A DNA stretch of 64,000 bases. Origin: a virus. The DNA lies in the IMG/VR virus record IMGVR_UViG_3300025030_000039, positions 124,878-188,877 of that record; one strand, 5' to 3'. The stretch's first letter is position 1. Each line of letters starts with the position of its first letter. Both the position numbers and the translations under genes were made by a program. The notes beneath the pieces were generated by a model. It was not told the origin of the DNA, did no database searches, and was given only the letters and a program-made list of their open reading frames with translations. Below, piece after piece: positions 11-36,008 of the stretch.

Positions 11-616
11 ATGAAATATATTAAAGACTATAACGATTTTATTAATGAAGCTAAATTACCTGATGTAAATTTAAATCCATTATATTTAGAAGCTAAAGAA
101 AGTAAAAGATATAAAGAGTTAATTGAATTAGAAGTAAAAGATATATCTACATTACAACAATAAAAGAATGGTTCATTTCAATTTTCTCCATTATTTAGAA
201 TCAAAGAAGTTCAAACATTAAAAGATAATCCTTTGGTTAAAAAGCAACCTAAAGAAAAAATTTTAGATTATGATTTAATTTTAAATAATGAATTTAATAA
301 ATTTGAAATTTTTCAATGTCGTAAAAAAAGTGTTAGATTAAAACATGGATCTGGAACATATGCAGGTTTAAATATTGGAAAAATTGGAAAAAAATATACT
401 AACTATAATGATGCTTTGGAATTTATAATAAATACTATAAAAAAAGATAAAAAGAATGTTGAAGATATTGTAAAATATTGGAAACAAGAAATAAAAAATA
501 ATATGTCAGTTATTAGTATAGTTAGAAAAATATTTGAACTTGAATTTATTAAAAAATATTTTAATATACCAGATCATTTAATTAATGCTGATGATTTTGG
601 ATTCTTAGATAATTAA
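11..616 (+). pseudogene. MKYIK-N-terminal / ADDFGF-C-terminal family gene interrupted by a single in-frame TAA (161-163); N-part 11-163, C-part 164-616
   Basis: ATG at 11 encodes MKYIKDYNDFINE...STLQQ then TAA. The same frame stays open through the track ORF 233-616, which the track starts at an internal TTG. That ORF ends ...INADDFGFLDN, matching the C-terminus of the LRR paralogue at 9476-10165. Confidence 0.5.
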
Positions 617-1229: not shown

Positions 1230-2399
1230 TTAAACTTTTTTAAATTCTATTTTTTTATTATCTATATCTATTTTAGAAATAATTACTTCTATTTCTTCAT
1301 TTTCTTTTAATTCAATACCTTCAAATTCTGATATATGAAGTAAACCTACAATGCTTTTTTCTAATTCGATAAATGCACCATAGTTTTTAATTGATGTTAT
1401 TCTACCTTTTGCTTTGCTTAAAGGTGGATATTTTTTATCTATATCTACCCATAAATCTTTTTGTAATTGAGTTAAAATTATTTTATTTTCATTTATAATA
1501 TCTTTAACTAAAAATTTAACTTTATCTCCAGCTTTAATACTTCTATTATTGAATTTATTTAACCATTCATCATTTAATTCATTCATAGGAATTAAACCAG
1601 TTAAACAACCAAATTGCGCAAATATTCCAAATTTTGTAGTTCCAGTAATAAATCCTTCATATTCATCATTAATATTATCTCTAATTTTATCTAAATTATT
1701 TCCAACTTGTGTTTTTAGATATTCTCTATGAGATACTACTATAGTACCTTTTTCTTTAGAATAATTTATAGGCATTACAATTAATTCTTTTCCTATAAGA
1801 GAATTAAAATCAATTAATTTATTCATTCCACCTAAAGATCCTGGCATAAATACTTCTATACTGTCAATTTTTAAAAGATAACCACCGTGAATTAATTCTT
1901 TTACTATTGCTTTATATGCAACAGGTTTTCCTACTGAATCTAAAATTTCTTGGAATTTATTATCTTTAATAGCATCTGAAAATGATGCTCTAAAATCATT
2001 ACTATTATTTTTTGAAATTTTTACTTTAATTTCATTACCTACTTGTAAAAGATCAGAATATTTTTTATCTTCTTTTTTAAGGTTTAACGTTACTGTATGT
2101 TTACTGTCTACTTCTAAGCAAGCATCTTCTTTATTAATTGAAACTATCTTTGCTGTTATCGTACTTCCATTTTGCAATTCAGTATATTCAAAGTCATTAT
2201 TAGGACCATTTGTATATAACTCATATGCTTCTTTTACATAAGATTCATCACTAAAGATTTTTGTTTTTCTTGGGATTTCTAATTCTACGAATTCTTCTTC
2301 GAATGGATTGTGTACGTTAGTTTTAATTTTTACTTTTGTTAACATTTTAAAAATAATTAAGGGTTGATAATGGATTAATCTAGGTGCATTTGGATGCAT
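1230..2399 (-). CDS. ribosomal protein S1-like protein with about four S1 RNA-binding domains
   Basis: S1 signatures GRITSIKNYGAFIELEKSIVGLLHISEF and GFITGTTKFGIFAQFGCLTGLIPMNEL. The segment GGYLLKIDSIEVFMPGSL...GKELIVMPINYSKEKGTIVVSHREYL aligns with Firmicute-type 4-domain RpsA. Confidence 0.65.
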   Translation of the reverse strand: MHPNAPRLIHYQPLIIFKMLTKVKIKTNVHNPFEEEFVELEIPRKTKIFSDESYVKEAYELYTNGPNNDFEYTELQNGSTITAKIVSINKEDACLEVDSKHTVTLNLKKEDKKYSDLLQVGNEIKVKISKNNSNDFRASFSDAIKDNKFQEILDSVGKPVAYKAIVKELIHGGYLLKIDSIEVFMPGSLGGMNKLIDFNSLIGKELIVMPINYSKEKGTIVVSHREYLKTQVGNNLDKIRDNINDEYEGFITGTTKFGIFAQFGCLTGLIPMNELNDEWLNKFNNRSIKAGDKVKFLVKDIINENKIILTQLQKDLWVDIDKKYPPLSKAKGRITSIKNYGAFIELEKSIVGLLHISEFEGIELKENEEIEVIISKIDIDNKKIEFKKV

Positions 2400-2542: not shown

Positions 2543-3817
2543 TTATTTAGCTTCACCTTCTCCAGTTTCATCGTCAGTACCATTAGATGGATCAGTTTTA
2601 AGTATTATAGTATCTCCAGAAGCAGATAATATTTCAGCTGTTAATTTTGTTCCTAAATCAGCATGAAAAAATTCTATTTGATTTCCAACTTTAAATGCCT
2701 TAGAAGGATCTGCTTTTTCATTATCTAATTTTAATGCTTTACTAGATGCTACATATCCTAAAACTTTAAATGGTGGTTGAGATGGAACACCAGCTGGAAA
2801 AAATAAACCTAAAATAGTTTCAGGTTTCAATAATCCAATCATCCATTTTATTATACATTGAACTAACAATAAAAAAGATATTATTTTATCAAATCCTGGA
2901 TATGATACTGCCATATCCATTAATTCATCTATTGTTAATTTAGGTGCTCCTATTTTAAATATTCTATCAAAAAATGCTTGAACACCTGCTGCTATACCAC
3001 TTATATCTACAACAGGAGGTGCAAATGATTTAGCTATTTCAGCTATAACGGGACCTAATATATCACCAATCATTCCTAATACAAATCCAACAGGGTCAGA
3101 TGCAATTTCAGTTAATTTATTTACTGCTGCTATAATATCAGTAGTTAAATCTTTTACAATATCTACTACAGCTTTAATAAGTCCTATTGCAAATTTAATA
3201 GGTAAAAATATTATTCCAATTATCTTAACATAAGGTATAAGATCAGTTAATAATTTACCAAATCCATCTATAGGAATATTCAATAATTGCATTACTTGAT
3301 CAATAATTTCTTGACCTAATGCTTGCAATGTATCTGGTATTAAAAGCTTAGCCTCATCTAACCATTTTTTCCAATCTATATCTGTTAATGTTAATGTATT
3401 TACTATTATATCTATTATAGCATCACCACTTGGAATAGGAACCATTAAAAAATCAAAAGGTTTTAATAATTTTGAAATTATAAATTCAACAACACTCATT
3501 GGTAAATTTGCTAATAAATCACTAATAGCACTTACAAGAGCAGCTACTTTACCGGCAAATTCAGCAGGAGCTTCTATACCAGCTTTTAATGCTTCTGTTA
3601 CAGCAGAAACTAAACCTATTAAAGGTTCATACGGAGTAGTAATACCTTTTTCAAAACTTCTTATTATAGTTTTTACTAAAGCACCCATACCTGGCTTTTC
3701 TGTATTCATATCTATTTCTAAACCTGAATCTTTTAAACAACTACCCAAGTCATCTATCATTTGTTGTAATTGTGAATCTTGTATCAATACTGGGTTTAAA
3801 CCAAAATCTGCTGCCAT
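2543..3817 (-). CDS. hydrophobic alpha-helical protein immediately downstream of the spike gene (tape-measure-like or membrane-active; function unknown)
   Basis: 424 aa rich in I/L/A/G/V with amphipathic stretches such as LIPYVKIIGIIFLPIKFAIGLIKAVVDIVKDL; sits 3 nt after the spike ORF. Confidence 0.4.
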   Translation of the reverse strand: MAADFGLNPVLIQDSQLQQMIDDLGSCLKDSGLEIDMNTEKPGMGALVKTIIRSFEKGITTPYEPLIGLVSAVTEALKAGIEAPAEFAGKVAALVSAISDLLANLPMSVVEFIISKLLKPFDFLMVPIPSGDAIIDIIVNTLTLTDIDWKKWLDEAKLLIPDTLQALGQEIIDQVMQLLNIPIDGFGKLLTDLIPYVKIIGIIFLPIKFAIGLIKAVVDIVKDLTTDIIAAVNKLTEIASDPVGFVLGMIGDILGPVIAEIAKSFAPPVVDISGIAAGVQAFFDRIFKIGAPKLTIDELMDMAVSYPGFDKIISFLLLVQCIIKWMIGLLKPETILGLFFPAGVPSQPPFKVLGYVASSKALKLDNEKADPSKAFKVGNQIEFFHADLGTKLTAEILSASGDTIILKTDPSNGTDDETGEGEAK

Positions 3818-3820
3818 AAT

Positions 3821-4603
3821 TTATTCTGTAAAAGATTTAGTACTTAATGGTGTTTCAAAGCCCATAGATATAGGGGTACCTGTGGGCGAACCTAAATTTC
3901 CGATGTGACAGTGCCCGTCAAATATAGGTTTAAAGCTCGTTCCTTGTACAAGAGCTTCTGCTGCAGCTGCCCCTAATTTTATTTTAGTTGCTTCTACTTC
4001 AGCTGTTCCAGATACTGTTAATGTTGCATCACCAGAACATTCACCTACTATGTTAACGCATTTAACGTTTATGTCAGCAGCTACTTCTAAGTTAACTGTG
4101 CCATCTGCTAATATTTCAAATAAATCTCCATTAGGATTTGTAATATGAAAGTTATTGTCAGGATCTAAATTAATTATAGTTTCTTTATAATCTATACTTA
4201 ATCCTTTTCCTTGTGTAAAATAAATTTTTAAAGCTTCATCTGTATCAAATATTAAAGAATGAAAATTTATAGGATCTGTTTTAATTTCTTCTTTTAATTC
4301 ATCAGAAATTCTTTGATGAAAAAAGTATTCAGGATGATAAATATTACCATTATCAAATTTAATTGATACTATAGATCCAACTCTTGGAACTGAATAATAA
4401 CCACCACCTGTTATTGATCCAGCTGTAGTATTATTAGCAGGATAAGCCCATGGAATATGTTCATTCGATAAATTATCAAATTTACCATATACTTTTACTT
4501 TTATTCTTCCTTCATATTGAGGATCTTCATTAACAACTACTTCACCTAACCAAGTAGATGTTGTTAAATTGTCACTATAATATTCTTCTTGTGTTAGTCT
4601 CAT
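3821..4603 (-). CDS. baseplate central spike, gpV/gp5(VgrG)-type N-terminal OB-fold with a C-terminal beta-helix and HxH apex
   Basis: LGEVVVNEDPQYEGRIKVKV...IPWAYP...TAGSITGGGYYSVPRVGSIVSIKFDNGNIYHPEYF matches the conserved gpV / phage baseplate assembly V pattern. The C-terminal GHCHIGNLGSPTGTP resembles the metal-binding HxH tip of P2 gpV-type spikes. Confidence 0.7.
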   Translation of the reverse strand: MRLTQEEYYSDNLTTSTWLGEVVVNEDPQYEGRIKVKVYGKFDNLSNEHIPWAYPANNTTAGSITGGGYYSVPRVGSIVSIKFDNGNIYHPEYFFHQRISDELKEEIKTDPINFHSLIFDTDEALKIYFTQGKGLSIDYKETIINLDPDNNFHITNPNGDLFEILADGTVNLEVAADINVKCVNIVGECSGDATLTVSGTAEVEATKIKLGAAAAEALVQGTSFKPIFDGHCHIGNLGSPTGTPISMGFETPLSTKSFTE

Positions 4604-4605
4604 AA

Positions 4606-6285
4606 TTAATTGTATACATTTTCATTATTAATTGAACCATGATTTAATGTTCCATCTGGAAATATAACTATTTTGTTTATAATTAAATCTTTATTTAAAG
4701 TATTATCGGGCAAAATATCTATATTTCCTAAATTTAAAGAAATAGGTCTATGTTGAAAAATATTCATAGGGTTAAAATTATCATTGGTAGCTAAATGTTT
4801 ACCTGAAAATATATTATCAGTATCTGCAGGTTTATAACTTTCAGTTCCATCTGGTAAAATAGATAATTTAAATGGCCTATTTGTATTAATACTATTAGGA
4901 AAAATATTATCTTTATCTACAGCATTATAGCTTTTAGTTCCAACTGGTAATAAAGGTTCTGTATTAGATTTAATATAACTAGCAGTTCCATCTTTAAGTA
5001 TAGGTTCTTCATTTAAATCAAATGTTCCGTGTGTTATATTTTGATATATTTTAACTTGGTTCATTTTAAATTTAGACACATCTATACCATGAAGTCCTTT
5101 ATAAATATTATCACTCATTCCAAATAAACCTTTAGCAAATTTAGTAACTCCACTTTCAATTGCACCACTTACTTTATCAATAGCTCCATTAATAACAGCC
5201 ATTCCTTTTCTTAAATATTTATTACTAGGCATATGAATGCCTGAATCCATTTGTATAAATCTTTTTCTTTTAGATTTATCTATAGTACCTTCTATTTTAT
5301 CTTTAGGTGTACCATTTTTAAGCATAGGATGATCTGTAATAATACTAGAATACCAAAGTGGAGCAGAATCTATTTCAAGTACTTGATATTCAAAAACTAA
5401 TTGTTGTTTAGTAGGTTCTGGTCTAACATTAGTAATATTTTCCCAGAATGCAGTACTCTCCATAGTATTGAATTCGCATTTTTTCGCAATAATAACATAT
5501 TGAGTTAAATTTTTCATTAATCTTCTAGCTGGATTATCACTATTATCACTACCTACATTATGACTTCTTGGTGCTAAATCTAAACCACTTAAAAGAGGAG
5601 TTGTATTATCAGCTTTCTTTTCTTTTATAAAATCTGTTTTACTATGAAATGGTCTAATATCTTGTATAAGAATTGTTACATTAAATTTTACAAGATTAGC
5701 AGGTATTATTTCCCTAACGAATTTAGAATCATAAGTAGCTGCTCTATATAAATCAAGTAATCCTGTTATAGCAAAATCCATAGATTCTAAACAATCAATA
5801 GATATTTTAGCATCATCACCTCCAGCAAAAGTAGAAAAATGATTATTATAAGTTTGCCATAATCTATCTAATCCAGTAATTCCTTGCCAATACCAAGGTT
5901 GATTTTGATTAATATATTGTAATCTGTTATAAAATTCTTGTAAATATTCTAATCTTATAGTTTCATTTTGTCTATATAAATATCCAGCTGCGCTATCTGC
6001 TGGATATGAAGGCTGTCCACTGCCTCCACTTCCACCCTGAAGACCTTTAAATAATGGGCTATCATACCAATCAAATAATAATTTAAATCCAAGATATGTA
6101 GGTTCACTGTATCTGCTATAGTCATGTGCAGTTCCTTTTTTAAATGCATTAACATCTGCAGACCAAAAAGTAGTACCTTTATTATCTATATCAGCATGAT
6201 ACATGATAGTTTTAGGATAATTACCTTTCAATAATCCTCCAACTGCGCCTTTTGCGGCATTCATTCCATCTTCTACTAATCCCAT
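4606..6285 (-). CDS. large tail/baseplate-associated protein (559 aa; hub- or wedge-like, unassigned)
   Basis: Lies directly upstream, in transcription order, of the spike. C-terminal repeats have the form [IL]P[DV]GTxSYxxxDxDNIF. Confidence 0.35.
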   Translation of the reverse strand: MGLVEDGMNAAKGAVGGLLKGNYPKTIMYHADIDNKGTTFWSADVNAFKKGTAHDYSRYSEPTYLGFKLLFDWYDSPLFKGLQGGSGGSGQPSYPADSAAGYLYRQNETIRLEYLQEFYNRLQYINQNQPWYWQGITGLDRLWQTYNNHFSTFAGGDDAKISIDCLESMDFAITGLLDLYRAATYDSKFVREIIPANLVKFNVTILIQDIRPFHSKTDFIKEKKADNTTPLLSGLDLAPRSHNVGSDNSDNPARRLMKNLTQYVIIAKKCEFNTMESTAFWENITNVRPEPTKQQLVFEYQVLEIDSAPLWYSSIITDHPMLKNGTPKDKIEGTIDKSKRKRFIQMDSGIHMPSNKYLRKGMAVINGAIDKVSGAIESGVTKFAKGLFGMSDNIYKGLHGIDVSKFKMNQVKIYQNITHGTFDLNEEPILKDGTASYIKSNTEPLLPVGTKSYNAVDKDNIFPNSINTNRPFKLSILPDGTESYKPADTDNIFSGKHLATNDNFNPMNIFQHRPISLNLGNIDILPDNTLNKDLIINKIVIFPDGTLNHGSINNENVYN

Positions 6286-6289
6286 TTTC

Positions 6290-7556
6290 TATATTTTATT
6301 TTGATGCGATGTAGTTTAATTTAAAATTAGAGGGACCACATACTCCTCTATGTAAAATATTCACTGCTGCATTATAATCTGCATCAATCTCTATTTTACA
6401 GCTTGAACATAAATAAACTTCACCTTTACGACTCTCTTTATCTATATTCGCGCATTTTGAACAAGTCTGGCTAGTATACGCTGGATTCACCTGCTTAATA
6501 AAGAAACCTTCTTCCTCGGCCAATAAATTTAATCTAGCATACACCTTTGGATAACTCCATCGCTGTATCTTATTCATTATTTTGTTATTTATATATTTGT
6601 TTGAATTATATTTAACATTTTTTAATTCTTCAATAATCAATTGATCGGGACTTTCATTTCTTATAAACTCTTTAACAGTTACATTAATTAACTCATCTCT
6701 TTCAATCAATGCTCTTTTAAATGATTTACTACCTTGCTCTTTTCTAGCTATCTTATAATAAATATTAAATAATTCTTTTCCATAATGTTCTCCTGAACTA
6801 GAAGATATTAATTTTTTATATCCTGTATCTATTCCTATAGACTTAATTATTTCTTTCTTTTTAGGTTCTTTCTTTTCCCATATTAAATCTATAAAAAATT
6901 TATCATCTTTTTTTCTTAATATTATTGTATTCTTTCTGTTCCAATTTTCGTTTATAAACCTATTACTTTGTCTATAATGCTTAATAGGAATATTAATTTT
7001 AACTGATAAATGTTTATTATCTTGAAAATAAGGAGTTTTAATTCTAATAAATTCATCAAATATATTTCCTTTTTTAATATCAAATAATCTATTATCAATA
7101 TACAATGAAACATTTTTAATTTGAATTTTTGGAATTCTTTTGATATAATTTATGTTTAATTCACTAAATCTTTTAGATGTAAAGTTTTGATGAATATTAT
7201 TTTTTATACATTTAGAATAAAGATATTTATATTTTTTATAAACTTTATTTTTAGATTTTTCTGTAGTACTTTTAATTATTTCAATTGCTTGTTTATATAT
7301 AATATGTTTCCATTGAGAGTGTTTAAAAATATAATTTGGTAAAATTTTAGATGATATAAATTTTTCAAAAGGTAAAGTTTTGTTTAAAATTAGATCGATA
7401 TAATATTGAAGCATTAGTTTATAATCATTATAGAATTGATCTATAATATTTAATTTTTCTTTATTTGAAAAACTTAAAACATGCTTACTCGTTCTTATCA
7501 TAATATATTTTCTTTAATAAATAAAAATTTTAATCAAATTGATGCGATGTACTCTC
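6290..7556 (-). mobile_element. IS1341-type (tnpB-only) insertion sequence, copy A, flanked by the 13-bp direct repeat TTGATGCGATGTA (6304-6316 and 7542-7554)
   Basis: About 90% aa identity to copy B. DNA identity to copy B ends right after GGTCCCTCTAATT at the 3' end on the minus strand. Confidence 0.55.
6296..7501 (-). CDS. tnpB: TnpB (IS200/IS605-family OrfB, RuvC-like nuclease with Zn finger), copy A
   Basis: RuvC-I SIGIDTGY, RuvC-II IIEELKNV, Zn finger CSKCANIDKESRKGEVYLCSSC, RuvC-III EIDADYNAAVNILHRG. Confidence 0.85.
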   Translation of the reverse strand: MIRTSKHVLSFSNKEKLNIIDQFYNDYKLMLQYYIDLILNKTLPFEKFISSKILPNYIFKHSQWKHIIYKQAIEIIKSTTEKSKNKVYKKYKYLYSKCIKNNIHQNFTSKRFSELNINYIKRIPKIQIKNVSLYIDNRLFDIKKGNIFDEFIRIKTPYFQDNKHLSVKINIPIKHYRQSNRFINENWNRKNTIILRKKDDKFFIDLIWEKKEPKKKEIIKSIGIDTGYKKLISSSSGEHYGKELFNIYYKIARKEQGSKSFKRALIERDELINVTVKEFIRNESPDQLIIEELKNVKYNSNKYINNKIMNKIQRWSYPKVYARLNLLAEEEGFFIKQVNPAYTSQTCSKCANIDKESRKGEVYLCSSCKIEIDADYNAAVNILHRGVCGPSNFKLNYIASK

Positions 7557-8940
7557 TTTTAAGAAGAGTTAATCTTTGTTTAATTGGTCCTGGAAAATTA
7601 TAAAAATATGTTATATCCGCAATAACATAATCACCACTTAAAAAATCATTTTTTAAAGGTGTTTTATCTAATGAATTTACTGTCTCTTCTTTCTGTATAC
7701 TTTTAGCAGTTTCTTCATAATTAAAAATAAATATAGGAACACTCTGAAATTTAGTTAATGTCATATCTGCAGATTCTAAAACTATATTCATTCCCATTTT
7801 AAATATTTCAGTTTTGTTTTGAAAGTTTAATACTTCAGAATATTTAAAATTTTCATGAACATTACCATCTGTTCTAGAATCTTGTTTTCCTAAATATTTA
7901 TATTTAACATGAGTATCAGAAACACCTTCAGGTACAAAATTATCCCCTTGTTTAATTAATCTTCCTTTTAAATGAACCATATTTTCAGAACCTTCAGTTG
8001 TTAATGGATCAACAAATTCACTTACATATTGATCTCCATCTACTTCAAAAAATTGCGCGTATCTTTTATATCCATTCATAAGAAATATTGTTCCACTATT
8101 ATTAAACATTTGATAATCAGTAATATATTTAGAAGTCCCTTCGAATGTAACATGATTAGTTAACATTAAAGGAGCTTTTTGAATATCTTTTTTTAATTCA
8201 TCAGGTGATACAGTATATCTAGCATCATTAACTCTATAAATTTCTGATTCAGTTATTTCAGAATCAATAGAAAATTGTTTATTAATATTTATAAAACATA
8301 AATTATAATACGAGTCAATATATGATGTAAAAAAACTCGTATCATCTTTATATACATTTGATAAAGAATCCTTTAAAAACTTTATTGTTGTATCTAATGG
8401 ATTAATCCATTTCATTTTATCATTAGTATTTTCTTCATTAGTGGCAAATCCTAATTCTAATTTTTGAGAAATTTCTAAAAATAAATCATAACTACTCATG
8501 TCATAAGATTCACAAAATTCAGTTAATAGATTTGGTACTTTCATTTGACCATAAATAGTAAATAATGTAGGTAACTTAGAAGATTTATCTCTAAATTGTG
8601 GACTAACGGATAAAATATCAAAATCTATTCTTATTTGTTTAAATACTTCTTCATTATTAGATCTTATTAAAAAGTTAATAACATCACCATCTCTTGGAAA
8701 AAATCTGGACATAAAGTTCATACTTTTATCTTGAACATTAACTCTAATTGTTGGTAAAAATGATGTTAAATTTAATTCAAATGAACCTAATTCTTTTATA
8801 TCAAATTCATAACCATTTATTTTAATTAATGGGAGATGTATACCTCCAAAATCTGAAGCATCACTTTCAGGAATAGCCATTTCATCAATAGTTATGGTTT
8901 TTTCAGTTATATTTAATATTGTATTTTCTAAATTTGCCAT
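7534..8940 (-). CDS. tail/baseplate-associated hypothetical protein (468 aa)
   Basis: Lies between the LysM gene and the spike region; its C-terminus ...EYIASI shares the 13-bp repeat with the IS flank. Confidence 0.3.
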   Translation of the reverse strand: MANLENTILNITEKTITIDEMAIPESDASDFGGIHLPLIKINGYEFDIKELGSFELNLTSFLPTIRVNVQDKSMNFMSRFFPRDGDVINFLIRSNNEEVFKQIRIDFDILSVSPQFRDKSSKLPTLFTIYGQMKVPNLLTEFCESYDMSSYDLFLEISQKLELGFATNEENTNDKMKWINPLDTTIKFLKDSLSNVYKDDTSFFTSYIDSYYNLCFININKQFSIDSEITESEIYRVNDARYTVSPDELKKDIQKAPLMLTNHVTFEGTSKYITDYQMFNNSGTIFLMNGYKRYAQFFEVDGDQYVSEFVDPLTTEGSENMVHLKGRLIKQGDNFVPEGVSDTHVKYKYLGKQDSRTDGNVHENFKYSEVLNFQNKTEIFKMGMNIVLESADMTLTKFQSVPIFIFNYEETAKSIQKEETVNSLDKTPLKNDFLSGDYVIADITYFYNFPGPIKQRLTLLKREYIASI

Positions 8941-8943
8941 TTA

Positions 8944-9549
8944 TTATTGTTTAATAGTTTTAAAATTTGCATCAAATGTTATTTTACCGTTTTTTATAAT
9001 AGTTCCTTTTTCTCCAGGTTGTAAATAATTAGTTGGTAATACTTCTTTAACAGCTCCTTTTTTTCCTTTAGCTTTTTCTTTTAATCTATCTATTCTATTC
9101 TGATCTTTTTCTGTTAATCTATCTATATCAACATATTGAGATCTTAAATCTTTTGCAACAGGTTCACCTGGAGTTTCATATACATCAGAAGCATTATCTA
9201 CTTTTGGTATAACTAAAATATCTCCAACATTAATACTAAATGGATTATAAATCGCATTAGCTTTACAAATCAAATCAATATATTCAGTACTACCATAATA
9301 TGTTAATGCTATTAAATCCATTCTCATAGCAGTCTCTTCAGTAACATAATAAATAGCCATGGTTTTAAGATCAATATCATGCTTAATTGATTGAGATGAT
9401 AAATCTAAATATTTATCTCCATCTTCATCAGTAAGAGTTTTTTTATTTTGTAAAGATTTAATATTCATATTTATTTTATTTTTTAAATCCAAAAAATCCA
9501 AAATCATCTGCATTATACAAAAGATCATACTTCTTTCTAACCCAATCAC
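8944..9549 (-). CDS. LysM-domain tail protein (gpX-like); the true start is probably the internal Met at about 9468, which would remove the overlap with the LRR gene
   Basis: YYVTEETAMRMDLIALTYYGSTEYIDLICKANAIYNPFSINVGDILVIPK fits the LysM consensus. Confidence 0.55.
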   Translation of the reverse strand: MIGLERSMIFCIMQMILDFLDLKNKINMNIKSLQNKKTLTDEDGDKYLDLSSQSIKHDIDLKTMAIYYVTEETAMRMDLIALTYYGSTEYIDLICKANAIYNPFSINVGDILVIPKVDNASDVYETPGEPVAKDLRSQYVDIDRLTEKDQNRIDRLKEKAKGKKGAVKEVLPTNYLQPGEKGTIIKNGKITFDANFKTIKQ

Positions 9550-10165
9550 TCACCTTTAACTTTCTTATTAACTCATACTTTATATATAAACTAGAATCTT
9601 GACTTAACCAATTATCAACTATATAATCTATATTATTTATATTTAATATTTTTAAATTTAAATCTAATAATTCTATAGGTAATATTGATGATTCATTATT
9701 TTTAAAATTAATTGATATATCTAATATATTTAAATTTTTTAATTTTAGCAATATAGTTGGAAAAGTAATAAAATTATTTTTAGATAAATATAAACCTCCT
9801 AAATTTTTTAAATTACCTATTTCCTTCGGCAACTCAGTTAATTGATTATCATGCAAATATAAATCTTTTAATTTTTCTAATTTTCCTATTTCTTTAGGTA
9901 ACTCCTTTAAATTATTATTAAATGCAGTTAATATTTTTAAATTTTTTAAATTACCTATCTCTTTTGGTAATTGTGTTAATTTATTGTTATATAAAAATAA
10001 ACGTTCTAAATTTTTCAATTTACCTATTTCTTTAGGTAAGTCATTTATATTTTTATCATTTAATCCTAAATCTTTTATATTTAAATCTTTTAATATTAAA
10101 TTTAAAATTTTTTCACTTTGCTTTGATTCATTTAAAAAATCCTTATATTTTTTAATATATTTCAT
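9476..10165 (-). CDS. leucine-rich repeat protein with MKYIK-type N-terminus and ADDFGF C-terminus
   Basis: About six 23-aa repeats of the form LPKEIGxLKNLxxLxLxxNxLxx. N-terminus MKYIKKYKDFLNES; C-terminus LLYNADDFGFFGFKK. Confidence 0.8.
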   Translation of the reverse strand: MKYIKKYKDFLNESKQSEKILNLILKDLNIKDLGLNDKNINDLPKEIGKLKNLERLFLYNNKLTQLPKEIGNLKNLKILTAFNNNLKELPKEIGKLEKLKDLYLHDNQLTELPKEIGNLKNLGGLYLSKNNFITFPTILLKLKNLNILDISINFKNNESSILPIELLDLNLKILNINNIDYIVDNWLSQDSSLYIKYELIRKLKVSDWVRKKYDLLYNADDFGFFGFKK

Positions 10166-10173
10166 AGTTAATT

Positions 10174-11997
10174 TTATGTATGTATCATTCCTTCATTTGA
10201 TAAAATTAAATTTTTAACTTTATTTGTTGTCCACTTTGTAAAATGAACAGAATTTTGAGCTGCTTTTTCTTGATTTTCTTGACTTATACCTATATCAGTT
10301 GCTCCATATCTTAATGCAGTTTCTGCATCTCCAGGTGTAAGTATACTACCATCTTGCCCAGAACCTTTACTGCCAGATGCAGTATGACCGCCTTTACCTT
10401 GTATTGCACCATATACTTCAATATCTTTTCCTTCTAAATTTAATATATCTGGAAAACTATCAGCTGATGCATATAATCTACCCATACCGGCGTTAAAAGC
10501 ACTTTCAAAATCTGATTTATCTCTAGGTCTTGCATGACTTAAATTACATTTTAATTGTATAATACTAGGAAAATCATCATATCCTAAAGGACCTTTAAAA
10601 GATATATTAGAATCTTTTAATATTAAATTACCAAACATTGCAATTGGATTCATAGGATTACCAACAGTTAAATGCCAGTTACCAGTAGGTTCACCAGTTA
10701 TTAAAGCTTTAACTGCTTGATATGCTGGTGCAGCACCAATTTGAGAATTTAAAAATCCCCCTAACATATTTCCTAGAAATGTTCCTCCGACTTTTTCTAA
10801 TCCATCTAAAACAGAATCGAATGTAAATGTACCTCCAGCTGTTCCAAATGTATTTTTAAAACCTCCTGATAAATCTGTAACAACACTACCTAAATATCCT
10901 TTAAAATCTCCACTTATTAATTTTTGTATATCTCCGAACTGACTAGCAATATATCCATTTCCTCCATAAAATCTATTAGCACCCCCCCAGAAATTAGCAT
11001 TACTATAAGTAAGCACTAATAAATTAGCAAATATATCTAACATTGCAATTCTAGGATTTAAATCACTATATGCTCTTAATTCATATTCAAAGTTAACTTC
11101 AATATCATGAGTAAAATTTAAACCTATATCTCTGGTCTGCATTTTATTTATAACATTAACTGGACCAATAACAAAATTTTCATATGTTTCCATTAATGGA
11201 TCATGACCAGCCATTCTTTCTCTTCTATATTTTTCCCCTGGACTAATACCTTTCATAGTATCAAATACTGCTCTACTTATATTACCAAGTTTAGAATAAA
11301 ATGGTTGTGCAGTATATCCTTCATTTTGTGATTGATACGTATTTGTTTCGCCAGTTTGTTCTTTCCAATTATATCCATACCCAAATGATAATATATCTGT
11401 TAAATCATTACCTGTGATATCACTCATCCATGTTAAAGCTCTAGCTAAGTCAGGAACAGTTACATTTTGTATATCTCCTAGTTGATTTTCATTTTTAGAA
11501 GTTGTTCTTCTAACGTCATAAATATTATCTTCACATGGCATAGCAAATCTTCTTAATGTTAGCATATAGTTATTTGCTATTTTATCATTATATTTAGCCC
11601 ATAAAAAATCAGACCAAGCATATTCTATACCTCCATATCTTTCATTAAAAAATTCTATTATATTTTGTGGAGTAGGATCTCTAGAAAAAGCAGGAGCTGT
11701 TAATGGATTATAACTATTATTAACATCATCTCTATAATATTTATATACTTCACCTTTCGGCATTCCATGTAAACCAAACCATGTAAATAAAGAATATCTA
11801 TTAGCTAAAGATAATGGAGCAGTATCAGATAAACTGGTAGCTCTTAATGTTTTTTGAGCTACTGTATATGCATAATTTAAATAAGCTACTTTATCAGTAG
11901 GATCAATTGTCATTAATTTTCTAACTTGTTCATAATCTGCTTGATTGAAATCTTGCTGAACAGGGACATTTAATCCAGTTGTAGTTTTATCTCCCAT
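10174..11997 (-). CDS. large structural-module protein (607 aa, Gly-rich C-terminal half), function unknown
   Basis: Co-directional and tightly spaced within the tail-like module. Confidence 0.3.
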   Translation of the reverse strand: MGDKTTTGLNVPVQQDFNQADYEQVRKLMTIDPTDKVAYLNYAYTVAQKTLRATSLSDTAPLSLANRYSLFTWFGLHGMPKGEVYKYYRDDVNNSYNPLTAPAFSRDPTPQNIIEFFNERYGGIEYAWSDFLWAKYNDKIANNYMLTLRRFAMPCEDNIYDVRRTTSKNENQLGDIQNVTVPDLARALTWMSDITGNDLTDILSFGYGYNWKEQTGETNTYQSQNEGYTAQPFYSKLGNISRAVFDTMKGISPGEKYRRERMAGHDPLMETYENFVIGPVNVINKMQTRDIGLNFTHDIEVNFEYELRAYSDLNPRIAMLDIFANLLVLTYSNANFWGGANRFYGGNGYIASQFGDIQKLISGDFKGYLGSVVTDLSGGFKNTFGTAGGTFTFDSVLDGLEKVGGTFLGNMLGGFLNSQIGAAPAYQAVKALITGEPTGNWHLTVGNPMNPIAMFGNLILKDSNISFKGPLGYDDFPSIIQLKCNLSHARPRDKSDFESAFNAGMGRLYASADSFPDILNLEGKDIEVYGAIQGKGGHTASGSKGSGQDGSILTPGDAETALRYGATDIGISQENQEKAAQNSVHFTKWTTNKVKNLILSNEGMIHT

Positions 11998-12019
11998 AAA
12001 TTATATTACTTTTATTTAT

Positions 12020-13225
12020 ATAGTTATTTTTTAATTAGAGGGACCATATACTCCTCTATGTAAAATATTCACTGCTGCATTATAATCTGCATCAATCTCT
12101 ATTTTACAACTTGAACATAAATAAACTTCACCTTTACGACTCTCTTTATCTATATTCCCGCATTCTGAACAAGTCTGGCTAGTATACGCTGGATTCACCT
12201 GCTTAATAAAGAAACCTTCTTCCTCGGCCAATAAATTTAATCTAGCATACACCTTTGGATAACTCCATCGCTGTATCTTGCTCATTATTTTGTTATTTAT
12301 ATATTTGTTTGATTTATGCTTAACATTTTTTAATTCCTCAATAATCAACTGATCAGGACTTTCATTTTTTATAAACTCTTTAACAGTTACATTAATTAAT
12401 TCATCTCTTTCAATCAATGCTCTTTTAAATGATTTACTACCTTGCTCTTTTCTAGCTATCTTAGCATAAATTTCAAATAAATTTCTTCCATAATACTCTC
12501 CTGAACTAGAAGATATTAATTTTTTATATCCTGCATCTATTCCTACCGATTTAATTATTTCTTTCTTTTTAGGTTCTTTCTTTTCCCATATTAAATCTAT
12601 AAAAAATTTATTATCTTTTTTTCTTAATATTATTGTATTCTTTCTTTTCCAGTTTTCGTTTATAAACCTATTACTATACATATGATATTTAATTGGAATA
12701 TTAATTTTAACTGATCTATATTTATTATCTTGAAAATATGGAGTATATAATTTTATAAATTCATCAAATTTATATCCTTTTTCAATATTAAATAATCTAT
12801 TATCAATATGCAATGAAATATTTTTAATCTGAATTTTTGGAATTCTTTTTATATAATTAATATTTAATTCATTAAATCTTTTAGATGTAAAATTTTGATG
12901 AATATTGTTTTTTATGCATTTAGAATAAAGATATTTATATTTTTTATAAACTTTATTTTTAGATTTTTCTGTAGTACTTTTAATTATTTCAATTGCCTGT
13001 TTATATACTATTTGTTTCCATACAGAATGATTAAAAATATAATTTGGAAGTTCTTTAGATGACAGAAATTTTTCAAAAGATAAAGTTTTGTTTAAAATTA
13101 GATCGATATAATATTGAAGCATTAGTTTATAATCATTATAGAATTGATCTATAATATTTAATTTTTCTTTATTTGAAAAACTTAAAACATGCTTACTTGT
13201 TCTTATCATATAATATATATTTGAA
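12020..13225 (-). mobile_element. IS1341-type insertion sequence, copy B, intergenic
   Basis: Ends inferred from where similarity to copy A stops. Confidence 0.5.
12031..13209 (-). CDS. tnpB: TnpB (IS200/IS605-family OrfB), copy B
   Basis: The first 40 aa are identical to copy A. Zn finger CSECGNIDKESRKGEVYLCSSC and all three RuvC motifs are present. Confidence 0.85.
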   Translation of the reverse strand: MIRTSKHVLSFSNKEKLNIIDQFYNDYKLMLQYYIDLILNKTLSFEKFLSSKELPNYIFNHSVWKQIVYKQAIEIIKSTTEKSKNKVYKKYKYLYSKCIKNNIHQNFTSKRFNELNINYIKRIPKIQIKNISLHIDNRLFNIEKGYKFDEFIKLYTPYFQDNKYRSVKINIPIKYHMYSNRFINENWKRKNTIILRKKDNKFFIDLIWEKKEPKKKEIIKSVGIDAGYKKLISSSSGEYYGRNLFEIYAKIARKEQGSKSFKRALIERDELINVTVKEFIKNESPDQLIIEELKNVKHKSNKYINNKIMSKIQRWSYPKVYARLNLLAEEEGFFIKQVNPAYTSQTCSECGNIDKESRKGEVYLCSSCKIEIDADYNAAVNILHRGVYGPSN

Positions 13226-13259
13226 ATTAAAAGGTTTATAATTTATCCCTTTAAACATA

Positions 13260-13841
13260 TCAGAAGGTTTTTATAAATTGATTATAATCTTCTTTATATA
13301 AATCAAATTTATCTCCAATATATTTATGAAATCTTTTCTTAAATTCTAATTCAGAATCTAATCTAAATAAACCTTTATAGAATCCTCGTGTAGATAATTC
13401 TTGAAGCTCAGCTATTTTTCTTACTATTAAAAAGTATTGTATATTATTAAATAATATTTGAAGATCAGCCTTTGTTTTTGTAGCCATAATAGAATCAATA
13501 ATTAGATAAAATCTTGATTCATCTTCTTGATTTAATCTTTTTTCTAGATCATTTACATTTTTAATAATTTCTGATTTTAGGCTTATTTTTCTAGCAAGAC
13601 CATCATAAGTGTTACAAAAATTCATGTCAAAAAAATATTTTTTTAAAAAATTTATTTGATCATAAAATTTTAATATCTTAATTTTATATAAGGGATTAAT
13701 AGGATCCCATTTAGTTTCTTTAATAAGACACTTTATAGGTATCAATATATTAGGATGATTAAACGAGGAAAGGAGAGCATGACACTGTTCTCCCTTTGAA
13801 AAAATTCTATGCTTAGTAGAACCATATTTTTTATTTGTCAT
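13260..13841 (-). CDS. hypothetical protein (193 aa)
   Basis: ORF in a tight co-directional array (13841/13845 spacing). Confidence 0.4.
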   Translation of the reverse strand: MTNKKYGSTKHRIFSKGEQCHALLSSFNHPNILIPIKCLIKETKWDPINPLYKIKILKFYDQINFLKKYFFDMNFCNTYDGLARKISLKSEIIKNVNDLEKRLNQEDESRFYLIIDSIMATKTKADLQILFNNIQYFLIVRKIAELQELSTRGFYKGLFRLDSELEFKKRFHKYIGDKFDLYKEDYNQFIKTF

Positions 13842-16824: not shown

Positions 16825-17979
16825 TTAAATTCCTCCTGCATCATTTATTGTCCAATTTTTAGTTCCTATTAAATATGTTCTTGATGCTTCAGCATCACCT
16901 CCTAATGTATATGTTTTTCCATTAGCTCCTAATGTAACATTTGATTGAACTAATTTAGTAGGAGATCCTCCACTCCATCCTGTCCATCCTATTAATAATG
17001 CATCATAATTTGTAGTATTTATTCCAGAACTTACAAACATATTTATCATAGTAGTAACTAAAGATATATCCCAATTTCCTATATTTTGGTTGAATGCAAC
17101 ACAATTTTCAAACATATAATCCATATTAATAACAGATGATGTATCCCATGCTCCAATAGGTTGATTAAACGAAGTATTATTTTTAAACATATAATCCATA
17201 TTAATAACAGATGAAGTATCCCATATACTTATATTCTGATTAAAAGAAGTATTATAAAACATACTACGCATATCATTAACATTTAAAGTATTCCATATAC
17301 TTATGTTCTGATTAAATAATGTAGCTCCATAAAACATATTTTGCATACTAATAACACTTGAAGTATCCCATAAACTTATATCTTGATTAAAAGAAGAAGC
17401 ATTATAAAATAATTGTGACATAGTAGTAACATTTGAAGTATCCCATAAACTTATATCTTGATTAAAAGAAGAAGCTTCTCTAAACATTGCACTTATATTT
17501 GTAATATTTGAAATATTCCATAAACTTATATCTCCATTAAAAGAAGAAGCTCCCAAAAACATATTTGCTAAAATAGTAACACTTTCTAAATTTGGATTAT
17601 CTGTAAAATTACCTGTTAAATTACTACAACCATTAAAAGCAGATAAAAATGTTTTCCATTTAATGCTACCCCATTGTTCAATAGTTAATATTTTTAATCT
17701 ATCGCCAGTATTATTAAAATATATAGATTCACATATTCCAGTTATTTTAATAGTATATGTTCCTATACTAGAATATGTGTGAGTAGTTTCTGCTTGATTA
17801 TAAGCAGTAATTTTATTTCTAATACCATCACCCCAATCAACAATACATGAATAAATATATCCAGATATAAATGGTAATTTAAATTGATTATTTGATGAAG
17901 AACCCGTACTTAAATTATCAGTTTTAACTGTTATAATAAAAGGACTTCCTTTTTTTATTAATTTATAATAATAACTCAT
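16825..17979 (-). CDS. DUF285 / BspA-like repeat protein
   Basis: At least eight ~26-aa repeats of the form SFNQDISLWDTSNVTTMSQLFYNAS. Confidence 0.7.
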   Translation of the reverse strand: MSYYYKLIKKGSPFIITVKTDNLSTGSSSNNQFKLPFISGYIYSCIVDWGDGIRNKITAYNQAETTHTYSSIGTYTIKITGICESIYFNNTGDRLKILTIEQWGSIKWKTFLSAFNGCSNLTGNFTDNPNLESVTILANMFLGASSFNGDISLWNISNITNISAMFREASSFNQDISLWDTSNVTTMSQLFYNASSFNQDISLWDTSSVISMQNMFYGATLFNQNISIWNTLNVNDMRSMFYNTSFNQNISIWDTSSVINMDYMFKNNTSFNQPIGAWDTSSVINMDYMFENCVAFNQNIGNWDISLVTTMINMFVSSGINTTNYDALLIGWTGWSGGSPTKLVQSNVTLGANGKTYTLGGDAEASRTYLIGTKNWTINDAGGI

Positions 17980-17990
17980 TTAATTAAATT

Positions 17991-20876: not shown

Positions 20877-20926
20877 TATTAACTATTTTTAAATATATAT
20901 CACGAACTGAATTAATTATAAAAATA

Positions 20927-20951
20927 AAGGTCTAATTTTTAGTTAGACCTT
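20927..20951 (-). terminator. hairpin AAGGTCTAA-loop-TTAGACCTT followed by a T-run on the minus strand
   Basis: Lies between the 296-aa gene stop and the 961-aa gene start. Confidence 0.4.
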
Positions 20952-20973
20952 CAATATTAAAATTTTTAATTTT

Positions 20974-21864: not shown

Positions 21865-21890
21865 TGTTTATTTTTATTTTTATTTATCTA

Positions 21891-23813: not shown

Positions 23814-23832
23814 AATTTATATTTTTATATTT

Positions 23833-24834: not shown

Positions 24835-24867
24835 AATTTATTTTTATTTTTCTTTTATTTTATTTAT

Positions 24868-26040: not shown

Positions 26041-26149
26041 TATTATAATTCTTTTTTTTATATATTTGTGCAATATAGAACATTTAATCATTTTCAGGAA
26101 GTTTAGATGATATATAATTTATATAAAAAAATAATATAAAATTAAAACA

Positions 26150-34935: not shown

Positions 34936-34936
34936 A

Positions 34937-35950: not shown

Positions 35951-36008
35951 GATATATTTTTATTTTATATATCATGAAAATTTTATAGTAATTACCCATA
36001 CCAATAAT

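What the first reader, a model, noticed from the sequence alone, without database searches (positions are those of the whole stretch)
2543..11997. Tail/baseplate-like module disrupted by two near-identical TnpB insertion sequences and a leucine-rich-repeat gene
Genes on one strand encode a LysM gpX-like protein, several large unassigned proteins, a clear gpV/gp5-type OB-fold spike with an HxH apex, and then a hydrophobic 424-aa protein. This reads like the hub-and-spike end of a myovirus tail or an extracellular contractile injection system. Sheath and tube genes are not recognisable in the window. Two ~90% identical IS1341-type tnpB genes and an LRR gene are inserted between structural genes, so the module may be partly decayed or undergoing remodelling.
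Basis: partly seen in the sequence, partly recalled or inferred. Interest (0 to 1): 0.6.

Follow-up and report, generated by a model that had tools for sequence, protein, structure and literature searches.

The report
Phage baseplate hub genes with TnpB inserts
This is the intact central hub-and-spike gene set of the contractile tail of a 462-kb phage; two copies of a transposase-less RNA-guided nuclease gene (tnpB with its guide-RNA scaffold) and one leucine-rich-repeat gene sit in the short gaps between its genes, which is fairly ordinary for large phages.

Summary
The window is part of LR756500.1, an uncultured 462-kb phage. Genes 2543-11997 (minus strand) form the inner-baseplate module. 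In order they are a tube-initiator-like 607-aa protein, a LysM-like protein (true start 9468), a gp27/gpD-type hub (AF2 pLDDT 87; Foldseek E 4e-16), a conserved 559-aa unknown, a gpV/gp5 OB-fold spike and a hydrophobic 424-aa protein.

Two relatives carry the same genes in the same order without the three extra genes. The extras are therefore lineage-specific insertions into intergenic spacers that are 11-60 nt long in those relatives. Every structural ORF is intact, so the module is not decayed. Sheath and terminase lie about 135 kb away, so this is a myophage, not an eCIS.

The tnpB copies are 90% identical in protein and 93.6% in DNA. They belong to an IS607 lineage, because the closest relatives carry a serine-recombinase TnpA, but these copies lack TnpA. 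Catalytic residues are intact and dN/dS is 0.35. The last ~200 nt plus a short tail encode a covariation-supported ωRNA-like structure. A third, non-coding 3' remnant elsewhere in the genome ends at the same conserved sequence as the two copies.

I read them as homing-endonuclease-like selfish cassettes. An exact 13-bp direct repeat brackets copy 1 and is unexplained.

The parts
10174..11997 (-). 607-aa conserved virion-module protein, tentatively a baseplate tube initiator or tube cap (gp48/gp54, Afp7, 'ripcord' type)
9476..10165 (-). Inserted LRR gene (229 aa), one member of a family of at least 7 in this genome with shared N-terminal (MKYIKxYxxF) and C-terminal (NADDFGF) motifs
   Evidence: Pfam LRR_14 8e-25 and LRR_8 4e-13. 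Absent between the 607 and LysM homologues in L004 and L007, where the spacer is 11-13 nt. Six paralogues at 36-44% identity lie elsewhere in LR756500.1. Terminal motifs.
8944..9468 (-). LysM-like baseplate protein (gpX/gp53-like), 174 aa, with corrected start
   Evidence: PHROG 15542, 7145 and 46 (tail and baseplate families), E 5e-7 to 6e-3. Pfam LysM is only E 0.032. Homologues of 173 and 175 aa lie directly upstream of the hub in L004 and L007, and the alignment starts at residue 28 of the listed ORF. Gene callers also give 174 aa.
7534..8940 (-). Baseplate central hub, gp27 / gpD / Mu gp44 / VgrG-N fold (468 aa)
   Evidence: AF2 pLDDT 87.1, pTM 0.87. Foldseek against PDB gave 47 hits at E <= 1e-3, all of them hub, VgrG or tail-tip proteins. 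Some homologues carry a C-terminal lysozyme or M23 peptidase domain (P0010, P0071).
7539..7551 (-). Upstream copy of the 13-bp direct repeat TACATCGCATCAA (last codons YIAS of the hub gene)
   Evidence: Only two occurrences in the window, against an expected 0.04. Sequence shown.
6314..7538 (-). tnpB-1 insert (1225 nt): about 37 nt of left-end remnant, the tnpB ORF (6296-7501, 401 aa; its last 6 codons and stop run out of the insert into duplicated target) and the ωRNA-like scaffold
   Evidence: PF07282 4.5e-17 and PHROG 506. Copy-to-copy alignment. Residues GID(225), IIEE(291-292), CxxC…CxxC (347-368) and IDAD (373-375) are intact. Absent between the hub and 559 homologues in L004 and L007.
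6314..6605 (-). ωRNA-like structured region of copy 1, overlapping the 3' end of tnpB-1
   Evidence: MFE -65.6 kcal/mol, z = -3.29. On 13 sequences, 96.8% of cells pair and 8 pairs carry compensatory changes. None of 500 shuffles reached four of the five measures and 1 of 500 reached the fifth. Slid controls pair at 31-47%. dS is 0.055 in the last 100 codons against 0.19 upstream.
6301..6313 (-). Downstream copy of the 13-bp direct repeat. It continues AAATAA ('K*'), which is probably the ancestral end of the hub gene
   Evidence: The closest hub homologue ends KREFIAPK*.
4606..6285 (-). 559-aa protein of unknown fold, a conserved partner encoded immediately upstream of the spike
   Evidence: Homologues sit directly before the spike gene in L004, L007 and PTm1 (ORF235-ORF234). 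No Pfam, PHROG or PDB-level assignment.
3821..4603 (-). Central spike, gpV/gp5-type OB-fold plus C-terminal β-structure and an HxH motif. No lysozyme domain
   Evidence: PF04717 above its cut-off. PHROG 37871 and 430. Weak PDB sequence hits to VgrG and P1 Gp5. The L004 homologue has a weak Gp5_trimer_C hit.
2543..3817 (-). Hydrophobic 424-aa protein with tape-measure-like segments. Candidate tape-measure or membrane-insertion component
   Evidence: PHROG 305, 991 and 1535 (tape measure), E 6e-7 to 8e-3. GRAVY +0.5 with 3 TM-like segments. 26% identity to the 291-aa protein that follows the spike in L004.
12003..13265 (-). tnpB-2 element: about 50 nt of left-end remnant starting at the stop codon of the upstream gene, the tnpB ORF (12031-13209, 392 aa) and the ωRNA-like scaffold with tail …AAAAGTAATAT, ending 5 nt before the ATG of the 607-aa gene
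   Evidence: PF07282 5e-18. Alignments. The RE tail is homologous to the relatives' …TAGTAATTAT terminus. L007 has only a 60-nt spacer at this position.
1230..2399 (-). S1-domain protein that closes the conserved gene block in all relatives
   Evidence: Pfam S1 2e-24. 45% identity to the L007 homologue in the same position.

Best explanation
The region is the inner-baseplate sub-module (central hub, spike and tube initiator) of the contractile tail of a 462-kb phage. The phage is related to Lak, PAU and the Tenacibaculum jumbo phages, and its host is probably a member of the Bacteroidota (inferred).

Transcription runs from high to low coordinates. The order is tube-initiator-like 607 aa, LysM-like 174 aa, gp27/gpD hub, conserved 559-aa unknown, gpV-type spike, hydrophobic tape-measure-like 424 aa, then an S1-domain protein. 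All of these are intact and presumably functional.

Three lineage-specific cassettes sit in the very short spacers between these genes. Two are diverged copies of a non-autonomous element derived from an IS607-lineage transposon. Each copy keeps tnpB and the guide-RNA (ωRNA) scaffold, which is encoded in the last ~200-280 nt of tnpB plus a short tail. Each has lost the serine-recombinase tnpA. The third cassette is an LRR gene from a multi-copy family of this genome.

Shown: the gene identities, the insertion status, the intact TnpB catalytic motifs, purifying selection on TnpB, and the conserved RNA structure.

Inferred: TnpB-ωRNA is an active RNA-guided nuclease. Its guide would be read from the ~16-20 nt following the right end, that is, the start region of the next structural gene. 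The cassette would then behave like the free-standing homing endonuclease genes of T4-type phages. It would cut insert-free alleles in sister or co-infecting genomes and be copied in by recombination, while staying harmless to tail gene expression because it sits between ORFs.
For: Source and relatives:
- Window identity.
- Synteny without the inserts in L004 and L007.

Structural genes:
- Hub fold.
- Tube-initiator-like fold of the 607-aa protein.
- Spike.
- LysM-like protein.
- Tape-measure-like hydrophobic protein.
- The rest of the tail lies elsewhere. Neck, gp6-like wedge and homing endonuclease genes are just beyond coordinate 1. Sheath, a further baseplate subunit and terminase lie at 184-198 kb.

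TnpB:
- PF07282 matches and PDB sequence hits to TnpB, Cas12f and CasΦ.
- Catalytic D-E-D and zinc finger intact in both copies.
- dN/dS 0.35, with dS 3.5-fold lower in the last 100 codons.
- The closest relatives (~60% identity) have a Resolvase-type TnpA overlapping the tnpB start by 8 nt, in phage-like contigs.
- Full, TnpA-less, internally deleted and 3'-only copies occur in several viral contigs.
- A third copy in this genome (432718-432993) is non-coding but ~90% identical in DNA. It carries the same …CCCTCTAATT sequence at its 3' end as the two copies.

RNA structure:
- z = -3.29 for copy 1.
- Covariation on 13 sequences.

Assembly:
- An independent Logan contig spans 607 to hub and breaks at both tnpB copies.

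Concept:
- TnpB-driven homing, including homing into co-infecting phages, is described in PMC10690162 and PMC13565253.
Against: - No insert-free near-identical strain was found. Neither a TAM nor guide-target complementarity could therefore be tested.
- Left ends are short and diverged. The right-end tail of copy 1 differs from copy 2, copy 3 and the relatives. The ωRNA of copy 1 may be impaired.
- No Rfam family matches.
- dN/dS of 0.35 is only moderate constraint.
- The 607-aa assignment rests on a low-confidence model (pLDDT 55).
- The 559-aa and 424-aa proteins have no fold evidence.
- The 13-bp direct repeat around copy 1 is not expected from either IS607 transposition or clean homologous homing.
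Confidence: 0.7

Rival explanations
1. The tnpB copies are inert relics. An IS607-type element entered the phage, lost tnpA and its ends, and is drifting towards the state of the third, non-coding remnant. The RNA structure and ORF are conserved only because the duplication is recent.
For: There is no TnpA next to either copy, only fragments elsewhere. Left ends are short and diverged. Copy 3 and many viral-contig copies are truncated or frameshifted. The tail of copy 1 is aberrant.
Against: dN/dS is 0.35 over 79 substitutions, and all catalytic and zinc-finger residues are kept in both copies. Compensatory base-pair changes extend across relatives of ~70-78% nucleotide identity, so the RNA structure is old and maintained. 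Internally deleted copies keep both ends, which is typical of elements still being mobilised or selected.
Confidence: 0.2
2. The TnpB-ωRNA units have been domesticated by the phage. They would act either as a multi-guide weapon against competing phages or host DNA, with the stand-alone 3' remnant serving as an extra guide gene, or as an RNA-guided regulator of the tail operon. The regulator version would use the 13-nt match between the flank of copy 1 and the end of the hub gene.
For: The units sit inside a conserved late structural operon. A non-coding remnant retains the whole scaffold and the same …CCCTCTAATT sequence at its 3' end, and is followed by a different flank. Similar 3'-only remnants recur in related viral contigs. 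If the right end of copy 1 ends at …TTAAAC, the guide would match 13 nt at the hub gene's 3' end.
Against: The catalytic residues are intact, unlike the nuclease-dead TldR regulators (PMC10705468). No target for any candidate guide was found elsewhere in the phage genome. Retention of 3' ends is equally explained by deletion bias, or by the right end supplying expression signals for the downstream gene. No host sequence is available.
Confidence: 0.08
3. The locus belongs to an extracellular contractile injection system or tailocin, or to a degraded prophage tail, rather than to a functional phage tail.
For: The top Foldseek hits for the hub include eCIS baseplates. No sheath or tube gene was recognised among the window ORFs scanned.
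Against: The window is 100% identical to a 462-kb phage genome record. That genome has terminase, sheath, neck and wedge genes. The same module occurs in cultured jumbo myophages PTm1, pT24, PAU and MA9V. All ORFs are intact.
Confidence: 0.02

Closest known systems
Central hub-spike complex of contractile tails (T4 gp27-gp5, P2 gpD-gpV with gpX, Mu gp43-gp44-gp45)
   Same: There is a gp27/gpD-fold hub, a gpV-type OB-fold spike with an HxH tip motif, a LysM-like protein immediately before the hub as in Mu and P2-type orders, and a tube-fold initiator-like protein nearby.
   Different: The spike has no lysozyme domain, unlike T4 gp5. An extra conserved 559-aa gene lies between hub and spike. A hydrophobic tape-measure-like protein follows the spike instead of preceding the hub. 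Sheath and tube genes are ~135 kb away.
IS607-family transposons carrying tnpB and ωRNA (for example the CboIStron/IS607 elements of PMC10690162, ISFba1 of PMC11061315)
   Same: The TnpB is about the same size (392-401 aa against an average of 390). The closest relatives have a serine-recombinase TnpA overlapping the tnpB start. A structured RNA overlaps the right end and is followed by variable flank.
   Different: The window copies have no tnpA. The ends are AT-rich (…GTAATTAT) rather than GG. The RNA overlaps the coding sequence and is not RAGATH-18 (no Rfam hit), unlike ISFba1. There is no group I intron. Copy 1 is bracketed by a 13-bp direct repeat, although IS607 elements make no target-site duplication.
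Free-standing homing endonuclease genes of T4-like phages (Seg, Mob)
   Same: They are single nuclease genes inserted between conserved, intact genes, absent from close relatives, and present in several copies or types per genome. This genome also has PHROG-annotated homing endonuclease genes in the same structural region.
   Different: Target recognition would be RNA-guided rather than protein-based. Homing activity is inferred here, not shown.
TnpB-only 'IS1341-type' elements of the IS200/IS605 family
   Same: tnpB stands alone without a transposase gene.
   Different: The nearest relatives are linked to a serine recombinase, not to a Y1 HUH transposase. No subterminal hairpin ends were seen.

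Membership tests
gp27/gpD/VgrG-N baseplate hub | Hub fold (tandem tube-like β-barrel domains) matching solved hubs | tested here: met
   AF2 pLDDT 87, pTM 0.87. Foldseek E from 4e-16 to 1e-8 against eCIS, T4 gp27, Mu gp44, P1 and pyocin hubs and VgrG.
gp27/gpD/VgrG-N baseplate hub | Encoded next to a spike and a LysM-type baseplate protein in a tail module | tested here: met
   Gene order LysM-hub-(559)-spike is conserved in L004 and L007.
gp27/gpD/VgrG-N baseplate hub | Trimer that seats the spike in the virion | not testable with these tools
   Needs a complex model or cryo-EM.
gpV/gp5 central spike | N-terminal OB-fold domain (PF04717) | tested here: met
   E 7.2e-7, 29.9 bits against a cut-off of 23.8.
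gpV/gp5 central spike | C-terminal trimeric β-helix and metal-binding HxH apex | tested here: inconclusive
   The HCH motif was read directly. The β-helical domain hit is sub-threshold (PF21930, E 0.059). The L004 homologue has a weak Gp5_trimer_C hit.
LysM baseplate protein (P2 gpX / T4 gp53 type) | LysM domain | tested here: inconclusive
   Pfam LysM E 0.032, 14.6 bits against a cut-off of 20.9. PHROG tail and baseplate families at E 5e-7.
Tube initiator / baseplate tube cap (T4 gp48/gp54, Afp7, ripcord) | Tail-tube fold domain matching baseplate tube-initiator proteins | tested here: inconclusive
TnpB (OMEGA RNA-guided nuclease) | RuvC D-E-D triad and zinc-finger/TNB domain | tested here: met
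   GID225, IIEE291-292, CxxC…CxxC 347-368 and IDAD373-375 are present in both copies. PF07282 is above its cut-off. PDB sequence hits to TnpB and Cas12f.
TnpB (OMEGA RNA-guided nuclease) | Conserved structured ωRNA overlapping the 3' end and right end | tested here: met
   z = -3.29. 96.8% of cells pair and 8 pairs are compensatory; controls fail. dS drops in the last 100 codons. The non-coding remnant keeps the region.
TnpB (OMEGA RNA-guided nuclease) | Guide taken from the flank, TAM-dependent DNA cleavage | not testable with these tools
   No empty-site allele was found. Needs biochemistry.
IS607 family transposon | Adjacent serine-recombinase tnpA | tested here: not met
   Absent at both window copies. 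Present in the closest relatives L017 and L020-L024. Only TnpA fragments occur elsewhere in the genome.
IS607 family transposon | No target-site duplication; GG at the ends | tested here: not met
   A 13-bp direct repeat brackets copy 1. The relatives' right ends finish …GTAATTAT. The rule is taken from PMC13565253 and PMC6188088.
IS200/IS605 (IS1341-type) | Y1 HUH TnpA in relatives and subterminal hairpin ends | tested here: not met
   The relatives carry Resolvase-type TnpA. Ends were compared, and no hairpin ends were seen.
IStron | Group I intron at the 5' part of the element | tested here: not met
   No Rfam hit in the window at gathering threshold, or at E <= 10 on 6200-6700. Only 32-50 nt lie upstream of tnpB.
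eCIS / tailocin | Tail module without capsid and packaging genes | tested here: not met
   Terminase and sheath homologues are in the same 462-kb record. Neck genes are adjacent.
Leucine-rich repeat protein | Tandem LRR units | tested here: met
   LRR_14 8e-25, LRR_8 4e-13. 69-nt periodic repeats at 9702-10115.

The most novel reading that the evidence does not exclude
TnpA-less tnpB-ωRNA units may move in phage genomes by a transposase-independent route that leaves 13-14-bp target duplications, seen at copy 1 here and at an independent copy in IMG/VR contig L026. Together with stand-alone ωRNA remnants, they might form a proto-CRISPR-like multi-guide system that huge phages use against insert-free competitors.
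Probability: 0.1. Interest if true: 0.75.

Novelty: new member of a known kind. Interest (0 to 1): 0.4.

Why it matters
For annotation, six previously unlabelled genes of the Lak/PAU/PTm1-type huge-phage clade now have evidence-graded baseplate roles. The hub is firmly assigned, the spike is supported by Pfam and PHROG matches (no model was made), the tube-initiator and LysM roles are tentative, and two genes remain open.

For mobile-element biology, the locus is a clear natural example of tnpB-ωRNA cassettes placed like free-standing homing endonuclease genes inside an essential late operon without damaging it. It also offers a solo ωRNA remnant and an unexpected 13-bp flanking repeat, which are concrete handles for testing how transposase-less TnpB units persist and spread in phages.

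None of this overturns current views. TnpB in phages and IS607-linked homing are already described.

Tried and rejected
- Rfam scans of the whole window and of the tnpB-1 3' region gave nothing. There is no RAGATH-18, no ωRNA family and no group I intron, so this is not an ISFba1-type reRNA or an IStron.
- No tRNAs were found.
- Sequence profiles of the hub and 607-aa families against PDB gave nothing meaningful. Only fold comparison worked.
- A peptide-pattern search for TnpB relatives in viral contigs found none. A DNA-motif scan succeeded instead.
- A test for paralogy between the 607 and 559-aa proteins was negative (hhalign probability 0.5%).
- A search of the whole phage genome for targets of four candidate guides found only the flanks themselves.
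- A look-up of contigs encoding the identical 607 and 468-aa proteins, to find insert-free strains, returned only the same arrangement. One was a 4.6-kb contig that breaks at both tnpB copies.
- A search for flanking direct repeats at other TnpA-less copies found one further case, L026 with 14 bp. None was found at copy 2, L018, L019, L029 or in the metagenome loci.
- I could not settle where the right end of copy 1 stops, either …TTAAAC or …AAAATAT, and left both readings open.

Full report
**Source and layout**

The 10.7-kb stretch 2543-13209 is 100% identical to LR756500.1, an unannotated 462,018-bp 'uncultured phage' record. Window position 1 corresponds to record position 322,381. G+C is 22-33% and nearly all genes lie on the minus strand.

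In transcription order the ORFs are:
- tnpB-2, 12031-13209
- 607 aa, 10174-11997
- LRR, 9476-10165
- LysM-like, listed as 8944-9549
- 468 aa, 7534-8940
- tnpB-1, 6296-7501
- 559 aa, 4606-6285
- 260 aa, 3821-4603
- 424 aa, 2543-3817
- an S1-domain protein, 1230-2399

**Checking the observation**

- Pfam and PHROGs confirm the spike (PF04717 above its cut-off, plus PHROG baseplate and gp5 families).
- They confirm both TnpBs (PF07282) and the LRR protein (LRR_14, LRR_8).
- The two TnpBs are 90.05% identical in protein and 93.6% in DNA.
- The 424-aa protein is hydrophobic, with GRAVY +0.5 and three TM-strength segments. It has weak tape-measure PHROG hits.
- The LysM call is weak by Pfam (E 0.032) but supported by PHROG tail and baseplate families.
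- Alignment to homologues moves the LysM start to M28, giving gene 8944-9468. The apparent overlap with the LRR gene then disappears.

**What the structural genes are**

I collected 77 homologues of the 468-aa protein, none with a Pfam domain covering the core. The alignment-based AlphaFold model is confident (pLDDT 87, pTM 0.87). Foldseek against PDB returns only baseplate hubs and related proteins. These include eCIS spikes and hubs, P1, T4 gp27, Mu gp44, the pyocin R2 hub and VgrG, with E from 4e-16 to 1e-8. This protein is the gp27/gpD hub.

- pyocin 'ripcord'
- several annotated tube initiators
- Mu protein N

I treat it as a tentative tube initiator or tube cap.

The 559-aa protein has no assignable fold. 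Its homologues always sit immediately before the spike gene in L004, L007 and PTm1 (ORF235-ORF234).

**Is it a phage tail?**

Just beyond coordinate 1 the same strand carries a gp13-like adaptor, a gp6-like wedge protein and two homing endonuclease genes. Homologues of the PTm1 sheath, a baseplate subunit and the terminase lie at 184-198 kb of the record. The module therefore belongs to a myophage whose tail genes are dispersed, as in its cultured relatives. It is not an eCIS.

**Are the extra genes insertions, and is the module damaged?**

Two metagenomic relatives have collinear modules. L004 is 54-59% identical and L007 is 45-55% identical.
- L007 reads w184-w130-w111-w125-w193-607-LysM-hub-559-spike-…-S1, with spacers of 11-60 nt and none of the three extra genes.
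- L004 lacks them too, but has a different 274-aa gene at the tnpB-2 position.

All structural ORFs in the window are full length relative to these homologues. The module is intact. The extras are intergenic, lineage-specific insertions.

**What the TnpB elements are**

The homology between the two copies starts about 10-15 nt before the ATG and is unambiguous up to …GGTCCCTCTAATT.

tblastn over the reassembled genome found a third copy at 432718-432993. It covers only the last ~275 nt. Two frameshifts and a 12-nt deletion make it non-coding. It is ~90% identical in DNA and carries the same …CCCTCTAATT sequence at its 3' end as the two copies.

The closest TnpB proteins (~60% identity) lie in phage-like contigs. 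A Resolvase-family TnpA sits immediately upstream and overlaps the tnpB start by 8 nt, which is the IS607 arrangement.

A DNA-motif scan recovered further copies in viral contigs. These are full, TnpA-less, internally deleted with both ends kept, or 3'-only. They define a right end, …TAGTAATTAT, followed by unrelated flank. They also define a left-end consensus. Copies 2 and 3 have recognisable versions of the right-end tail. The tail of copy 1 is aberrant.

Both window ORFs keep the RuvC D-E-D residues and the zinc finger. dN/dS between them is 0.35. Synonymous divergence falls from 0.19 to 0.055 in the last 100 codons. That is expected if this stretch also encodes RNA.

The 3' 281 nt fold better than shuffles (z = -3.29). 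On 13 sequences the consensus structure is 96.8% paired, with 8 compensatory pairs. None of 500 shuffles reached four of the five measures, and 1 of 500 reached the fifth. Slid controls pair at 31-47%. The 12-nt deletion in the remnant removes only a hairpin tip.

No Rfam family matches, including RAGATH-18 and group I introns. This is therefore an IS607-lineage TnpB whose ωRNA overlaps the coding sequence. It is not the ISFba1 type (PMC11061315) and not an IStron (PMC10690162).

**How it most likely works**

TnpB-ωRNA complexes of IS605 and IS607 elements cut the transposon-free allele and are copied back by recombination (PMC10690162). The same logic applied to co-infecting phages is discussed as non-restorative homing (PMC13565253).

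Here the right ends stop a few nucleotides before the start codons of the 607-aa and 559-aa genes. The guides would therefore read into those gene starts. The cassettes sit exactly where T4-type free-standing homing endonuclease genes sit, and the genome carries several protein homing endonuclease genes in the same region.

I infer homing-endonuclease-like selfish persistence. I could not test TAM or target because no insert-free near-identical strain turned up.

**Unexplained**

The exact 13-mer TACATCGCATCAA occurs only twice in the window (expected 0.04), at 7551-7539 and 6313-6301. These two copies bracket tnpB-1.

The upstream copy encodes the last residues of the hub. The downstream copy continues 'K*', which matches the C-terminus KREFIAPK* of the closest homologue. 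It therefore looks like a target-site duplication. IS607 elements are not supposed to make one (PMC6188088, PMC13565253).

One independent TnpA-less copy (L026) has an analogous 14-bp repeat that covers the upstream gene's stop codon. Other copies do not.

**The LRR gene**

It is one of at least seven LRR paralogues, 36-44% identical, scattered in the genome. These share an N-terminal MKYIKxYxxF motif and a C-terminal NADDFGF motif with non-LRR ORFs, including window 233-616 and 632-1015. Its function and mode of spread are unknown.

**Verdict**

This is a real, intact hub-spike module of a huge myophage, colonised but not degraded by selfish cassettes. The components are new members of known kinds. 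The flanking repeat and the solo ωRNA remnant are the only features that go beyond the expected.

Noticed in passing
window 33745-36857 (-): The NAD-dependent DNA ligase is split into an N-terminal ORF (36009-36857) and a C-terminal ORF (33745-34935). A homing-endonuclease-like ORF (34937-35950) lies between them.
   Followed up: no
window 58706-60327 (+): A third, unrelated TnpB gene is present (59362-60327; PF01385 2.5e-23). Fragments of an IS607-type TnpA, interrupted by a stop, lie just upstream (58706-59071).
   Followed up: partly
LR756500.1 432718-432993 (L015:46338-46613, +): A non-coding 3' remnant of the same tnpB retains the whole ωRNA-like region and the same …CCCTCTAATT sequence at its 3' end. 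It sits in an intergenic gap between same-strand genes and could be a stand-alone guide RNA gene.
   Followed up: partly
LR756500.1 428715-429898 (-) and 235599-236240 (-): Two further TnpB-like ORFs lie in the same genome. The first (275 aa) is next to a 48-aa N-terminal TnpA fragment. The second is 26% identical to the window copies.
   Followed up: no
window 233-616, 632-1015, 9476-10165; 11 more ORFs in LR756500.1: A multi-gene family is defined by an N-terminal MKYIKxYxxF motif and/or a C-terminal NADDFGF(F/L)DN motif. It is shared by LRR and non-LRR proteins, and an ORF in viral contig L028 has a similar N-terminus.
   Followed up: partly
L026 (IMGVR_UViG_3300035698_012980), around 9437-10700: A frameshifted TnpA-less tnpB copy is bracketed by a 14-bp direct repeat, TATATAAATAACAA, that covers the stop codon of the upstream gene. 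This parallels the 13-bp repeat at window copy 1.
   Followed up: partly
window 16825-26091 (-): There is a tail-fibre-like cluster. It contains a DUF285/BspA-like repeat protein (16825-17979), a 961-aa tail-spike-like protein, and three genes (starts near 20876, 23813, 24834) that share a ~94-nt 5' segment, presumably a common N-terminal attachment domain.
   Followed up: no
window 1230-2399 (-) and homologues in L004, L007: A ~380-aa protein with several S1 RNA-binding domains is conserved at the downstream end of the hub-spike gene block in all relatives. This is an odd partner for tail genes.
   Followed up: no
L014 (record 300001-322380): 18059-19264 and 4177-5403 (-): Two more homing-endonuclease-like genes are interspersed with neck (19433-20191) and gp6-like wedge (9349-11115) genes just beyond window coordinate 1.
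   Followed up: no
LR756500.1 193347-197773 (-): The large-terminase homologue matches in three separate pieces spread over 4.4 kb. This suggests intervening introns, inteins or homing endonuclease genes.
   Followed up: no
window 44625, 46401, 49357, 58574: A 62-nt AT-rich intergenic motif recurs (core AAATAAATATAATAATAAAGTTTTTA). It may be a phage promoter.
   Followed up: no
L004 1304-2128: The relative L004 has an unrelated 274-aa gene with no Pfam hit at exactly the position occupied by tnpB-2 in the window. The w193|607 junction may be an insertion hot spot.
   Followed up: partly
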